DNA from: Dictyostelium discoideum
Lineage: Eukaryota
Length of the DNA stretch: 64,000 bases
Direction of reading: 5' to 3'
Assembly: GCA_000004695.1 (NCBI GenBank)
Contig: CM000150.2
Span: forward strand, 4,416,001-4,480,000
Shown: positions 314-3,469 of the stretch, in pieces
Layout of the letters: every line of letters starts with the position of its first letter
Numbering within the stretch: position 1 is the first letter of the stretch
The notes under the pieces: generated by a model
Databases searched by the model: none
Told to the model about the DNA's origin: nothing
Seen by the model: the letters and a program-made list of their open reading frames with translations, nothing else
Program-made: the position numbers and the translations under genes

Positions 314-897
314 TTATTCTAATGAAGTTGCAACATAATCTGCTCTTAAATTATAAGCTCTTGCATTTCTCCATACATAGAAACGAGCTTTAAATCCTTT
401 GGTTGTTACATTAATTGCTTGAACATCAACACGAGTTTGTTGGTAAACATTTGTACCAGTTGCATCAGCAGATGTTGTATCGATATGACCTAATGTAATT
501 GCAATCAATGGAATTGATTTAAATTCGACTGGGAATAAAACATCAACAAGAATTTCACGAGCACCAGTATTTGTAGTACTATTTAAAACAGTATCAGCAC
601 CTGGTGAAATATTTCTACCAACTTGAGTGAAACTGTGTTGTTCAATTTCAGCATATAATTCAAATCTTAATGAAATATGAGTATTCCAAGTCAATGGACA
701 AATAGCAATTGAACGAGCTCTAATTGGAGTATCAAAGAAATGAGTGGTAACTGTATTACGATCACTATTAGCAGCAATAGAACTACCATTTCTATACTCT
801 TTCCAATTAACACCATCAAGAGTATAACGAACTTTAAATGATGTTACCCATTGATCCACTATTATTTATTCAAATTATTAAATTAATAAATTTTATT

Positions 898-973
<76 letters not shown>

Positions 974-1227
974 AAAAACTTACAATCACCACGACCTTGA
1001 ATTGCTAAAGAAACATAGGTTTTTGGATTTTCAGAACCAGCCATAATGTATTGATTAGTATCGAGAATAGCAGCACACCAAGCTTCTGAACCACCTTGAG
1101 TATTTGGAGCACCATTTTTAAAATTTAAAACACTATTAAATTGAGTGTGAACACCATTAAAATTAGTTGAAGTTCTAAGATTAACAAGAGAGTTATAAAC
1201 TACTGGAACTAAATTTGCTGTTGACAT
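314..1227 (-). CDS. Discoidin I-like lectin (discoidin/F5-8 type C domain plus H-type lectin domain), tandem copy 1. Exon 1 is 984..1227, the intron is 859..983, and exon 2 is 314..858 with its stop at 314-316.
   Basis: Exon 1 translates to [81 protein letters not shown]. Exon 2 translates to (L)[24 protein letters not shown]...[14 protein letters not shown]...NVTTKGF...[13 protein letters not shown]. The pair is about 60% identical to Dictyostelium discoidin I ([40 protein letters not shown]...[21 protein letters not shown]...YSLRADYIATALE). The minus-strand donor is GTAAGT (plus-strand acttac at 978-983) and the acceptor is aataatag|TG at 860-859. Exon 1 ends with one extra base, so the intron is phase 1. 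Confidence 0.85.
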
Positions 1228-1837
1228 TTTTTTTTTTTTTTTTTAATAAAAGTTAATTTAAATACAATTTATTTAAATTTGATTATAAATGAAATTTATG
1301 TTTTTGTTGATATTAAAAATAAAAAAAAAATTTGTTCTTTTAATAGTTTTTTTTTTTTAATTATAAAATAATAAAATTAAAAAATTAATATAAAAAATAA
1401 ATAAATATATTATTATTTTAGAATCACAAGAATTTTTTTTTAGTTACTATAATTTTTTTTTTTTTTAAATTATCTTTAGATTTTTTTTTTTTTTGGAAAG
1501 ACAAGGAGATGGGAAAAAATAAAAAAATTTGGTTAACACAAAGAAAATGACCGACATTTTTAAATGAAGACATTTTTTTGAGATTTTATTTTTAAAAAAA
1601 AAAAAAAAAAAAAATATCTTTTCTATTTTCTCAAATGATTTTTTGGGCTTTTTTTTTTGACTTTTTAAGATTTTTTGATTAATAGTTTATAGTAGAAAAA
1701 ATAAAATAAAAAATAAAATAAAAAATAAAAAAAAAATAAAATAAAAAATAAAAAAATCCCAAGATTTTGAAATAAAATAGTTTTTTTTTTTTATTTTTAT
1801 AATATTAAAATAAGTTTTTATAATTTTAATAACATTA

Positions 1838-2250
1838 TCCAATTGAAATAATTAAATCTTAGTTAATAATTCTTCAAAATAAAATTGAATTTTTTGAATG
1901 ATATTATTGAATTCAATAAAAAAAATATTTTATTTGTGATAATACTTAATTAATTGAAATTAAAATGAATTTAAAACAACCACTTTAATCCACATCAATT
2001 TCAATATGACCTGTTTGATCTTTATCAAATAAATCAAATTACTATTTAAATAAATCTTTATCAAAACCTCTGAAATGGTTTAAAAAGAAATCTATAAATT
2101 CATATTCTTAAAAACCAGATTTTTTATCTTTTGAAGTGTATTCATTGTAATCTTTAGTTGGTCTATCAATTTTTATTTTATTTGTTTTTTTAAATTAATT
2201 TATTTATTTCTTCTTTTGATAATTTTGTATTTTCTAGCTCCATTTTTTTA
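1838..2250 (-). pseudogene. Decayed relic of the C-terminal coding end of the Asn-rich gene at 4069..7204, carried along in the discoidin duplication unit.
   Basis: The reverse complement of 1838-1900 translates to IIQKIQFYFEELLTKI*LFQLDNV. The intact gene's C-terminus is [29 protein letters not shown]...KIN*. Further upstream the relic reads ...LISIN*VLSQIKYF against the intact gene's [14 protein letters not shown]. Several in-frame stops are present. Its position relative to discoidin copy 1 matches that of the intact gene 3' end relative to copy 2. Confidence 0.5.
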
Positions 2251-2563
2251 ATTTAAAAAAAAAAAAAAAAAAAACAATCATTAAGTTTTTAAAATAAAAT
2301 AAATAAAAAAATAACTTTTTTGAGTATAAAAAAAAAAAAAAAAAAAAAAAAGAACCTTTCTATTTTTTTTTTCTATTGTTCAATTTAATAAAAGAAATCA
2401 ATTATTCCCATTTTTTTTTATTTTTTTTAATAGAAATTTCAAAAGATATAAATTAAAAAAAAAACTAAATAAATAAGTGAAAATTTGTTTTTTTTTTTTG
2501 TTTTCTGGTAAAAACATAACACATGTGGTAATTAAAATAAAATAAAATTTATTTTTTTTTAAT

Positions 2564-3147
2564 TTATTCTAATGAAGTTGCAACATAATCTGCTCTTAAA
2601 TTATAAGCTCTTGCATTTCTCCATACATAGAAACGAGCTTTGAATCCTTTAGTTGTTACATTAATTGCTTGAACATCGACACGAGTTTGTTGGTAAACAT
2701 TTGTACCAGTTGCATCAGCAGATGTTGTATCGATATGACCTAATGTAATTGCAATCAATGGAATTGATTTAAATTCGACTGGGAATAAAACATCAACAAG
2801 AATTTCACGGGCACCAGTATTTGTAGTACTATTTAAAACAGTATCAGCACCTGGTGAAATATTTCTACCAACTTGAGTGAAACTGTGTTGTTCAATTTCA
2901 GCATATAATTCAAATCTTAATGAAATATGAGTATTCCAAGTCAATGGACAAATTGCAATTGAACGAGCTCTAATTGGAGTATCAAAGAAATGAGTGGTAA
3001 CTGTATTACGATCACTATTAGCAGCAATAGAACTACCATTTCTATACTCTTTCCAATTAACACCATCAAGAGTATAACGAACTTTAAATGATGTTACCCA
3101 TTGATCCACTATTATGTATTTAAATTATTAAATTAATAAATTTTAAT

Positions 3148-3215
<68 letters not shown>

Positions 3216-3469
3216 AAATACTTACAATCACCACGACCTTGAATTGCTAAAGAAACATAGGTTTTTGGATTTTCAGAACCAGCCATAATGTATTGATTAG
3301 TATCGAGAATAGCAGCACACCAAGCTTTTGAACCACCTTGAGTATTTGGAGCACCATTTTTAAAATTTAAAACACTATTAAATTGAGTGTGAACACCATT
3401 AAAATTAGTTGAAGTTTTAAGATTAACAAGAGAGTTATAAACTACTGGAACTAAATTTGCTGTTGACAT
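2564..3469 (-). CDS. Discoidin I-like lectin, tandem copy 2. Exon 1 is 3226..3469, the intron is 3109..3225, and exon 2 is 2564..3108.
   Basis: The exon-2 protein is identical to copy 1 over 181 aa, and the exon-2 DNA differs only at a few synonymous sites. Exon 1 differs by R18K and E48K. Intron position, the GTAAGT donor and the aatag acceptor are conserved, and the intron holds a roughly 65-nt poly(dA) run. The flanking promoter and 3' sequences are also homologous to copy 1. Confidence 0.85.

What the first reader, a model, noticed from the sequence alone, without database searches (positions are those of the whole stretch)
314..3469. Two near-identical tandem discoidin-I-like lectin genes kept identical at the protein level
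Two 2-exon genes lie head-to-tail about 2.25 kb apart. Both encode a discoidin-domain plus H-type-lectin protein about 60% identical to canonical discoidin I. The second exons differ only at a few synonymous positions, for example tttggt/tttagt, acatcaacacg/acatcgacacg and tcacgagc/tcacgggc. The first exons differ by only two conservative substitutions. This pattern implies recent duplication, ongoing gene conversion, or purifying selection. The sequences are clearly distinct from the classical dscA/C/D coding sequence, so this is a separate discoidin-like paralogue pair.
Basis: partly seen in the sequence, partly recalled or inferred. Interest (0 to 1): 0.55.

Follow-up and report, generated by a model that had tools for sequence, protein, structure and literature searches.

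The report
Tandem discoidin-like lectin gene pair
Two neighbouring, already annotated Dictyostelium discoideum genes encode almost identical discoidin-type sugar-binding proteins, and they stay alike because an old tandem duplication is repeatedly homogenised by gene conversion – a real but ordinary feature.

Summary
Window 314-1227 and 2564-3469 (minus strand) are two 2-exon genes of 789 coding nt (262 aa). They differ at 7 nt: 5 synonymous in exon 2 and 2 replacements in exon 1 (R18K, E48K). Both have F5/8-type-C and H-type-lectin domains and are about 58% identical to discoidin I. They are exact matches to D. discoideum AX4 chromosome-1 proteins XP_646620.1 and XP_646621.1 ("galactose-binding domain-containing protein"), so the pair is already annotated.

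The new part is the mechanism. The duplicated unit (about 2.25 kb) runs from the 3' end of the upstream gene into the 5' end of the downstream EF-hand gene, and a decayed EF-hand fragment sits in the spacer. Identity is 98.6% over a sharply bounded tract of about 1.03 kb (-100 to stop +26) but only 76-83% in the flanks.

Against a divergent strain, coding sites group the paralogues by strain (14:0), while flanking sites group them by position (31:8). The duplication is therefore old and the genes are homogenised by interlocus gene conversion under purifying selection. It is not a recent duplication or an assembly artefact. Copy number is 1-3 in the discoideum-group assemblies. No third copy lies left of the window. 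Function is untested. Interest is low.

The parts
314..858 (-). Copy B (promoter-distal, next to the EF-hand gene), exon 2 including the stop codon. The protein is XP_646620.1 / EAL72456.1.
   Evidence: Splice and translation; exact protein match; the H_lectin domain lies here.
859..983 (-). Copy B intron, 125 nt, GTAAGT...AATAG. It is mostly a 73-nt homopolymer (A on the plus strand, U in the transcript).
984..1227 (-). Copy B exon 1 (ATG at 1227). It carries R18 and E48, as in all relatives.
2564..3108 (-). Copy A (promoter-proximal, next to the ~1010-aa gene), exon 2 including the stop codon. The protein is XP_646621.1 / EAL72457.1 / Q55C60. It has five synonymous differences from copy B.
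3109..3225 (-). Copy A intron, 117 nt, with a 65-nt homopolymer. It differs from the B intron by 4 substitutions and one 8-nt length difference.
3226..3469 (-). Copy A exon 1 (ATG at 3469). It carries K18 (window 3417) and K48 (window 3328), both derived G>A changes seen only in this sequence.
2538..3572 (-). High-identity (converted) tract, copy A side: about 100 nt of 5' proximal sequence through the stop codon plus 26 nt.
   Evidence: 15 substitutions in 1035 aligned bases (1.4%), against 17.4% and 23.5% in the flanks.
286..1334 (-). High-identity (converted) tract, copy B side.
3573..4191 (-). Diverged upstream flank of unit A. It includes the 3' end of the ~1010-aa gene (stop at 4069). 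Homology to unit B resumes beyond the (ATT)55 repeat, up to about 4420.
   Evidence: 17.4% substitutions plus indels against 1335-1908; gene position.
1335..1990 (-). Diverged upstream flank of unit B. Its distal part (about 1790-1899, possibly to 1990) is a decayed copy of the 3' end of the ~1010-aa gene, without the microsatellite.
   Evidence: 78% identity to window 3800-4182; alignment.
2023..2241 (-). Decayed fragment of the 5' end of the neighbouring EF-hand gene, carried into the spacer by the duplication. It marks the duplication junction.
   Evidence: 82% identical to nt 4-226 of the real gene in L001 (11305-). The translation has stops and a frameshift.
1..285 (-). Diverged downstream flank of unit B. 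It leads to the intact EF-hand gene, which starts about 117 bp beyond the left edge of the window.
   Evidence: Homologous to 2242-2537 with 23.5% substitutions. Window position 1 corresponds to L001 11188, and the EF-hand gene starts at L001 11305.

Best explanation
The two genes are a tandem pair of discoidin-like lectin genes on D. discoideum chromosome 1. The duplicated segment was about 2.25 kb. It ran from the last ~100-350 nt of the upstream ~1010-aa gene, through the lectin gene, into the first exon of the downstream EF-hand gene. The two truncated neighbour fragments now sit in the spacer and have decayed.

The duplication is at least as old as the split between AX4 and a wild lineage that differs by about 9% at synonymous sites. 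Since then, non-allelic (interlocus) gene conversion has repeatedly copied one lectin transcription unit onto the other. The converted tract is about 1.03 kb, from about -100 to stop +26, and it is 98.6% identical including the intron and synonymous sites. Purifying selection keeps the protein constant. Unequal exchange in the same array changes copy number between strains (1, 2 or 3).

By inference only, each protein is a cytosolic, trimer-forming Gal/GalNAc-type lectin like discoidin I and II. [quoted passage not shown] It also carries a 7-residue loop insertion, shared with the neighbouring 259/261-aa clade, that could alter specificity.

Shown here: gene structure, domains, duplication anatomy, identity profile and phylogenetic discordance. 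Inferred: the conversion mechanism itself, lectin activity and trimerisation.
For: Gene models and the 7 differences. Domains. Full-length match to solved discoidin I and II: (model pLDDT 81.7, TM 0.73-0.75 to 2w94).

Identity profile: 1.4% substitutions in the tract against 17.4% and 23.5% in the flanks, p = 9e-49. Synonymous sites (5 of 179) against flanks give p = 9e-11, and the intron against flanks gives p = 5e-7. The decayed EF-hand fragment (82%) and the fragment of the upstream gene's 3' end (78%) lie in the spacer.

Paralogue dS is 0.028 in AX4 and 0.064 in strain FIW. Between strains it is 0.095-0.141 for the lectin and 0.094 for the neighbouring Vps16 gene. Four-sequence site patterns: in the CDS, 14 sites group by strain and 0 by position; in the flanks, 8 group by strain and 31 by position (p = 1.3e-7). 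This holds under five aligner settings.

Orthologue dN/dS is about 0.05-0.13. W244 and Y250 align with DscA W235 and Y241, whose mutation abolishes ligand binding (preprint 10.64898/2026.06.18.733164). Copy number in the discoideum-group assemblies is 1-3.
Against: No conversion event was observed directly. The case rests on two strains that carry two copies, and on alignments of very AT-rich flanks, whose substitution estimates are noisy.

The spacers of AX4 (1336 bp) and FIW (838 bp) differ, and FIW lacks the EF-hand fragment. A single deletion across the junction explains this, but independent duplications with different breakpoints are not formally excluded. They are contradicted only by the by-position site patterns.

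The tract coincides with the transcription unit, so some of the 5' and 3' proximal conservation could reflect selection. No expression, binding or oligomerisation data exist for these proteins in the literature searched.
Confidence: 0.8

Rival explanations
1. Simple recent tandem duplication: the copies are alike only because there has been too little time to diverge, without any gene conversion.
For: Low paralogue divergence (7 of 789 nt, dS 0.028). Paralogues group by strain in the coding region. The spacer length differs between AX4 and FIW, and one strain has a single copy, which could suggest independent duplications.
Against: Within the same duplicated unit, the flanks are 17-24% diverged with many indels, and the co-duplicated EF-hand fragment is only 82% identical and disrupted. 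Flank sites group A with A and B with B across strains, 31:8. That pattern requires the duplication to predate the strain split, whereas coding dS between paralogues is three times lower than between strains.
Confidence: 0.08
2. Old duplication with the coding regions kept alike by purifying selection alone (including codon-usage selection), without sequence exchange.
For: Strong protein constraint: dN/dS is about 0.05-0.13 between orthologues, and no replacement separates the copies in the second assembly.
Against: Selection on the protein does not explain near-identity at synonymous sites (2.8%) and in the intron (3.4%) when flanks differ by about 20%. Synonymous sites are free to change: between-strain dS of 0.095-0.141 is no lower than that of the neighbouring Vps16 gene (0.094). 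Fourteen substitutions are shared by both paralogues of one strain, and none supports orthology by position.
Confidence: 0.07
3. Assembly artefact: one gene was erroneously duplicated in the reference assembly.
For: Near-identical copies are a classic source of assembly error. The two replacements in copy A are not reproduced in another assembly.
Against: The units have different flanks, different intron lengths and five fixed synonymous differences. An independent assembly (GCA_054883475.1) reproduces window 935-3182, which spans the whole spacer, at 100% identity. Other assemblies carry 2 or 3 copies at the syntenic site.
Confidence: 0.01

Closest known systems
Discoidin I (DscA/DscC/DscD; PDB 2w94, 2wn2) of D. 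discoideum
   Same: Same two-domain architecture (F5/8 type C plus H-type lectin), similar length, alignable from end to end (E 4.7e-94; predicted fold TM 0.73-0.75). The pocket residues Trp and Tyr are conserved. By my own recollection, not checked here, discoidin I is likewise a small multigene family of near-identical, partly linked genes. The preprint gives about 97% identity among group I.
   Different: Only 58% identical. It forms a separate clade with its own orthologues in D. cf. discoideum, D. citrinum, D. dimigraforme and D. firmibasis. It has a 7-residue insertion (SADATGT..VY region, residues about 212-220) and a 2-residue insertion (about 176-177) in the H-type domain. It lies on chromosome 1 between a ~1010-aa gene and an EF-hand gene. 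No biochemical or genetic data exist for it.
Discoidin II (DscE; PDB 2vm9, 2vme)
   Same: Same architecture and fold (E 2e-65; TM 0.71-0.73).
   Different: About 44-45% identity, so more distant than discoidin I.
[quoted passage not shown]
   Same: The RefSeq name of both proteins is 'galactose-binding domain-containing protein', the name the preprint abbreviates as Gbdcp. The bipartite organisation is as described there.
   Different: The preprint only lists them. It says nothing about the tandem pair, its conversion or its copy-number variation. I could not map dictyBase gene identifiers, so I do not know which listed name belongs to which copy.
Interlocus (non-allelic) gene conversion between young tandem duplicates, e.g. 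as surveyed in Drosophila (PMC2588116; title and abstract seen, paper not read)
   Same: Paralogues are more alike within a genome than orthologues between genomes. The homogenised tract has sharp boundaries and diverged duplicated flanks.
   Different: Nothing mechanistic differs. This is simply an example in a very AT-rich amoebozoan genome, where the tract coincides with the only non-low-complexity part of the unit.

Membership tests
Dictyostelid discoidin family (discoidin domain + H-type lectin) | N-terminal F5/8 type C (discoidin) domain | tested here: met
   PF00754: E 2.8e-22 / 1.9e-22, 79.6-80.1 bits against a cut-off of 28.2, residues 34-149.
Dictyostelid discoidin family (discoidin domain + H-type lectin) | [quoted passage not shown] | tested here: met
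   PF09458: E 6.7e-15, 55.4 bits against a cut-off of 24, residues 187-259.
Dictyostelid discoidin family (discoidin domain + H-type lectin) | End-to-end similarity in sequence and fold to solved discoidins | tested here: met
   phmmer against 2w94_A: residues 1-262 align with 2-254, E 4.7e-94. The AlphaFold model (pLDDT 81.7) has 2w94, 2wn2 and 2vme as best Foldseek hits, TM 0.71-0.76.
Dictyostelid discoidin family (discoidin domain + H-type lectin) | Conserved aromatic residues of the beta-galactoside pocket (DscA W235/Y241, DscE W238/Y244) | tested here: met
   W244 is invariant and Y250 is at least 90% conserved in the 27-sequence alignment, and they align with DscA W235 and Y241. The role of these residues is taken from the preprint.
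Dictyostelid discoidin family (discoidin domain + H-type lectin) | Homotrimer with Gal/GalNAc binding at the subunit interfaces | not testable with these tools
   This needs recombinant protein, glycan arrays, and SEC or crystallography. Only a monomer model was made.
Discoidin I proper (dscA/C/D group) | About 97% identity among members, in the same clade as DscA | tested here: not met
   58% identity to DscA. The NJ tree places the pair in a distinct 262-aa clade, sister to a 259/261-aa clade, with the DscI clade outside.
Concerted evolution by interlocus gene conversion | Paralogues within a genome are more similar than orthologues between genomes | tested here: met
   dS is 0.028 (AX4) and 0.064 (FIW) within genomes, against 0.095-0.127 between AX4 and FIW. 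By-strain site patterns outnumber by-position patterns 14:0.
Concerted evolution by interlocus gene conversion | Flanks of the same duplicated unit keep orthology by position, so the duplication is older than the lineage split | tested here: met
   Flank site patterns are 31 by position against 8 by strain, stable under five alignment settings and a strict gap filter.
Concerted evolution by interlocus gene conversion | Sharply bounded high-identity tract inside a more diverged duplication | tested here: met
   98.6% identity over 1035 nt, then a drop to 76-83% within about 30 nt on both sides.
Concerted evolution by interlocus gene conversion | Direct observation of a conversion event (donor and acceptor known) | not testable with these tools
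   The only candidate is window 3328/3417 (A,A), which reads G,G in the near-identical assembly L001. This is equally explained by point mutation or by reference error.
Tandem segmental duplication | Head-to-tail units with a junction that carries truncated copies of the neighbouring genes | tested here: met
   The EF-hand 5' fragment at 2023-2241 lies close to a copy of the ~1010-aa gene's 3' end at about 1790-1990.
Assembly duplication artefact | Identical flanks; not reproduced by independent assemblies | tested here: not met
   The flanks are 17-24% diverged. An independent assembly matches window 935-3182 at 100%.

The most novel reading that the evidence does not exclude
The pair, together with its 262-aa orthologues and the neighbouring 259/261-aa clade, is a third, functionally distinct discoidin subclass. 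Its enlarged loop in the H-type domain (a 7-residue insertion between the third and fourth strands, apparently the loop that borders the sugar site in discoidin I) would give a different glycan specificity. For example, it could bind other microbial surface glycans than DscA and DscE do. Copy number would then be under dosage or arms-race selection, which would explain the 1-3 copy polymorphism, the gene conversion, and the gain and loss of cluster members between closely related species.
Probability: 0.25. Interest if true: 0.4.

Novelty: already known. Interest (0 to 1): 0.2.

Why it matters
The practical value is modest. Discoidins are being re-examined as cytosolic glycan sensors in host defence and as parts of the contractile machinery. 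Knock-out and antibody studies should be aware of this untested, near-identical chromosome-1 pair, which retains the ligand-pocket residues.

The locus is also a clean small example of interlocus gene conversion and copy-number turnover in an extremely AT-rich genome. It also flags two possibly erroneous or strain-specific replacements (R18K, E48K) in the reference protein XP_646621.1. It does not open a new question.

Tried and rejected
1. Third copy to the left of the window: rejected. In the near-identical assembly L001 the next genes are the EF-hand gene, a THOC3-like WD40 gene and HSP70. tblastn finds only two copies in the 64-kb window.

2. Assembly artefact: rejected.

3. Hypervariability of the lectin between AX4 and wild strains: rejected. 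Vps16 shows the same dS (0.094).

4. Exact-protein look-up of copy A in the contig index found nothing. Copy B's look-up returned only the second assembly.

5. Literature searches for accessions (Q55C60, XP_646620/1, EAL72456/7), 'DD7-1' and the RefSeq name returned only one preprint, which merely lists the proteins. I could not obtain dictyBase IDs or expression data.

6. Mathieu et al. 2010 (PMC2975065), which describes the discoidin I sugar-binding residues, is not held. Only the Trp/Tyr pair from the preprint could be checked.

7. A first BLAST of flank elements against all loci was swamped by low-complexity hits. It was repeated with a strict threshold.

8. The tRNA scan of the window was empty. 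The bacterial promoter/terminator scan was not used because it is inappropriate for this eukaryote.
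Full report
**1. What is in the sequence**

The window is extremely AT-rich: GC is 9-37% per kb and falls to 11-16% per kb in repeat-rich stretches. On the minus strand of 314-3469 there are two genes with the same two-exon structure.

- Copy B: exon 1 984-1227, intron 859-983, exon 2 314-858.
- Copy A: exon 1 3226-3469, intron 3109-3225, exon 2 2564-3108.

Both introns have GTAAGT donors and TAG acceptors, and consist mostly of a 65-73-nt homopolymer. Each CDS is 789 nt (262 aa). 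The copies differ at 7 positions. Codon 18 is AGA/AAA (R/K) and codon 48 is GAA/AAA (E/K); both are in exon 1, with the Lys in copy A. Five synonymous changes lie in exon 2, at codons 133, 181, 225, 234 and 237. The exception is that E48K is a charge reversal at a position conserved in at least 90% of 27 family members.

**2. Identity of the genes**

Both proteins pass the Pfam gathering thresholds for F5/8 type C (E about 2e-22) and H-type lectin (E about 7e-15). They align end to end with the crystallised discoidin I A chain (2w94, E 4.7e-94) and discoidin II (2vm9, E 2e-65). An AlphaFold model has mean pLDDT 81.7, with low confidence in residues 25-53 and around the loop at 211-220. It hits 2w94 and 2wn2 (TM 0.73-0.76, 58% identity), then discoidin II (44-45%).

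The two proteins are exact matches to D. discoideum AX4 XP_646620.1/EAL72456.1 (copy B) and XP_646621.1/EAL72457.1/Q55C60 (copy A). Both are named 'galactose-binding domain-containing protein' and lie on a 4,923,596-bp contig, taken here to be chromosome 1. [quoted passage not shown] I found no functional, expression or evolutionary study. The feature is therefore already annotated.

**3. Anatomy of the duplication**

I used a second, near-identical D. discoideum assembly (L001, GCA_054883475.1) to see beyond the left edge of the window. It matches window 935-3182 at 100% identity.

The two units align over about 2.1-2.2 kb (L001 7068-9205 against 9320-11530). In window terms:

- Unit A is 4191-2023, and homology resumes beyond the (ATT)55 repeat up to about 4420.
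- Unit B is about 1990 to about 342 bp beyond the left edge of the window.

The unit starts inside the 3' end of the upstream ~1010-aa gene (stop at 4069). It ends inside the first exon of the downstream EF-hand gene. The spacer therefore contains two decayed fragments:

- a copy of the EF-hand 5' end (window 2023-2241), 82% identical to the real gene and carrying stops and a frameshift;
- a copy of the upstream gene's 3' end (about 1790-1990), 78% identical.

This explains why homology to the inter-copy region 'continues to position 1'. It is the downstream arm of unit B, and the intact EF-hand gene starts about 117 bp beyond the left edge of the window. There is no third copy there or elsewhere in the window.

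**4. Identity profile**

A global alignment of the two units gives a step function. From about 100 nt upstream of the ATG to 26 nt past the stop (A 3572-2538, B 1334-286) there are 15 substitutions in 1035 aligned bases (1.4%). By segment:

| Segment | Substitutions |
|---|---|
| Exon 1 | 0.8% |
| Intron | 3.4% |
| Exon 2 | 0.9% |
| Upstream flank | 17.4% (89 of 511) |
| Downstream flank | 23.5% (108 of 459) |

The flanks also carry many indels. Tract against flanks gives p = 9e-49. Synonymous sites (5 of 179) against flanks give p = 9e-11. The intron against flanks gives p = 5e-7.

**5. Comparative test**

Syntenic loci were fetched from seven other assemblies. The gene order Vps16 / ~1000-aa gene / lectin(s) / EF-hand / ... 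/ THOC3-like WD40 / HSP70 is conserved where the fetched loci reach.

| Assembly (short name used here) | Locus | 262-aa lectin copies at the site |
|---|---|---|
| D. discoideum, locus-tag prefix ACTFIW ('FIW') | L002 | 2, period 1707 bp |
| D. discoideum, prefix ACTFIR ('FIR') | L003 | 1 |
| D. cf. discoideum, prefix ACTFIZ ('FIZ') | L004 | 3 |
| D. citrinum, two assemblies | L005, L006 | 2 (A plus a diverged 258-aa B) |
| D. dimigraforme | L007 | 1 |
| D. firmibasis | L008 | 1, plus a lone exon 1 |

Nei-Gojobori estimates:

- Paralogue dS is 0.028 (AX4) and 0.064 (FIW).
- AX4 against FIW or FIR is 0.095-0.141.
- This matches the neighbouring Vps16 gene (0.094 and 0.087), so synonymous sites of the lectin evolve at the background rate.
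- dN/dS between orthologues is about 0.05-0.13.

I then counted four-sequence site patterns for AX4-A, AX4-B, FIW-A and FIW-B. In the CDS, 14 sites group the paralogues by strain and none by position. In the diverged flanks (-560..-100 and +30..+230), 31 sites group A with A and B with B, against 8 by strain. Fisher p = 1.3e-7. The direction is stable under five MAFFT settings and a strict gap filter.

The duplication therefore predates the AX4/FIW split, yet the coding regions have been homogenised within each lineage. That is the signature of interlocus gene conversion. It excludes both 'recent duplication only' and 'purifying selection only'.

FIW's shorter spacer lacks the EF-hand fragment. 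A single deletion across the junction is the simplest reconciliation. Independent duplication is the residual alternative.

**6. The two amino-acid differences**

In L001 copy A has G at both positions (R18, E48), while it keeps the copy-A states at the flanking markers 3219 and 3504-3512. All other family members also have R and E. The Lys residues are thus derived and unique to the reference sequence. They could be a real AX4-lineage change, a reference error, or a short B-to-A conversion (90-285 nt) in the other lineage. This cannot be decided here. In L001 the two proteins are identical.

**7. Likely function (inferred)**

The architecture, the fold and the conservation of W244/Y250 argue for an active H-type lectin that works like discoidin I and II, as a cytosolic trimer binding Gal/GalNAc-type glycans. 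W244 and Y250 correspond to DscA W235 and Y241. The W235F/Y241S double mutant abolished DscA binding to intact M. marinum in flow cytometry and reduced binding on glycan arrays.

Two differences stand out. One is a 7-residue insertion in the loop between the third and fourth strands of the H-type domain (residues about 212-220). It is shared with the 259/261-aa clade and absent from DscI and DscII. The other is a 2-residue insertion near 176. By the strand numbering quoted in PMC6048534 (the beta11-beta12 loop borders the sugar site), the larger insertion may lie next to the pocket. I could not verify that numbering.

**8. Phylogenetic placement**

A neighbour-joining tree puts the pair in a 262-aa clade with orthologues in D. 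cf. discoideum, D. dimigraforme, D. citrinum and D. firmibasis. This clade is sister to the 259/261-aa genes. Those genes lie between the EF-hand and THOC3-like genes in D. citrinum, D. dimigraforme and D. firmibasis, but are absent from the four discoideum-group loci examined (L001-L004). The classical discoidin I clade is the next outgroup. The pair is thus a member of the discoidin family but not of discoidin I proper.

**9. Verdict**

The mechanism is resolved in favour of gene conversion acting on an old tandem segmental duplication under purifying selection. The genes are already annotated and the phenomenon is textbook, so interest is low (0.2). The most novel reading still open is a functionally distinct, copy-number-variable discoidin subclass with altered glycan specificity (probability about 0.25).

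Noticed in passing
L004:1491-7971 (D. cf. discoideum, GCA_054859235.1): The middle of the three lectin copies has a Ty3/gypsy-type LTR retrotransposon inserted in exon 1, after codon ~58. It encodes a gag zinc knuckle, protease, RT, RNase H and integrase. The repeat finder reported two direct repeats 100% identical over 300 nt (1491-1790 and 7672-7971), which implies a very recent insertion. The exon sequence ACTAATC is repeated at both ends. The gene caller fused it into a '1903-aa' protein.
   Followed up: partly
L002, L003, L004 against the window (syntenic lectin locus): Copy number of the 262-aa lectin gene varies among discoideum-group assemblies: 2 in AX4-like, 2 with a shorter 1707-bp period in FIW, 1 in FIR and 3 in D. 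cf. discoideum. FIR's single gene looks like an A/B hybrid: A-like at CDS sites 126-135 and 210, B-like at 579-774. That would fit unequal crossing-over.
   Followed up: partly
L002 against L003 lectin CDS: FIW and FIR differ by dS of only 0.024 in Vps16 and 4% in the lectin upstream flank, but by dS 0.10-0.12 in the lectin CDS. FIR also has about 10 private changes at CDS positions 180-480. This is unexplained; a third donor allele is one possibility.
   Followed up: no
L005:14389-18416, L006:14246-18190, L007:15007-17611, L008:8005-10892: D. citrinum, D. dimigraforme and D. firmibasis carry two further discoidin-like genes (259 aa on the minus strand, 261 aa on the plus strand) between the EF-hand and THOC3-like genes. 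In D. discoideum (L001-L003) and D. cf. discoideum these two neighbours are adjacent and the lectins are absent, so cluster members have been lost or gained.
   Followed up: partly
L008:6657-6900 (D. firmibasis); L004:18789-19220: Two orphan lectin fragments. One is a lone exon-1 copy downstream of the D. firmibasis 262-aa gene, which the gene caller fused into a '333-aa' product. The other is a remnant about 60% identical to exon 2, downstream of HSP70 in D. cf. discoideum.
   Followed up: no
window 899-971 and 3149-3213: Both lectin introns consist largely of a pure homopolymer: 73 and 65 A on the plus strand, which is poly-U in the pre-mRNA. Its length differs between the copies and is about 30 nt shorter in the second assembly (L001). 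This could be slippage or homopolymer assembly error.
   Followed up: no
window 4186-4350, 5774-6088, 6778-6925: Long trinucleotide repeats, (ATT)55, (TTA)105 and (TAT)49, lie inside or next to the ~1010-aa ORF upstream of the lectins, presumably as poly-Asn tracts. The predicted protein length varies from 776 to 1076 aa among the assemblies. The copy of this gene's 3' end in the lectin spacer lacks the repeat.
   Followed up: no
window 3328 and 3417: The reference protein XP_646621.1 carries K18 and K48. Every other family member and a near-identical second assembly have R and E. This may be a reference sequencing error or an AX4-specific mutation at a conserved Glu.
   Followed up: partly
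L002/L003 against the window, whole locus: Two assemblies labelled D. discoideum (GCA_054859355.1, GCA_054859385.1) differ from AX4 by about 9% at synonymous sites of Vps16. To my knowledge that is far more than the published within-species diversity, so they may represent cryptic lineages.
   Followed up: no
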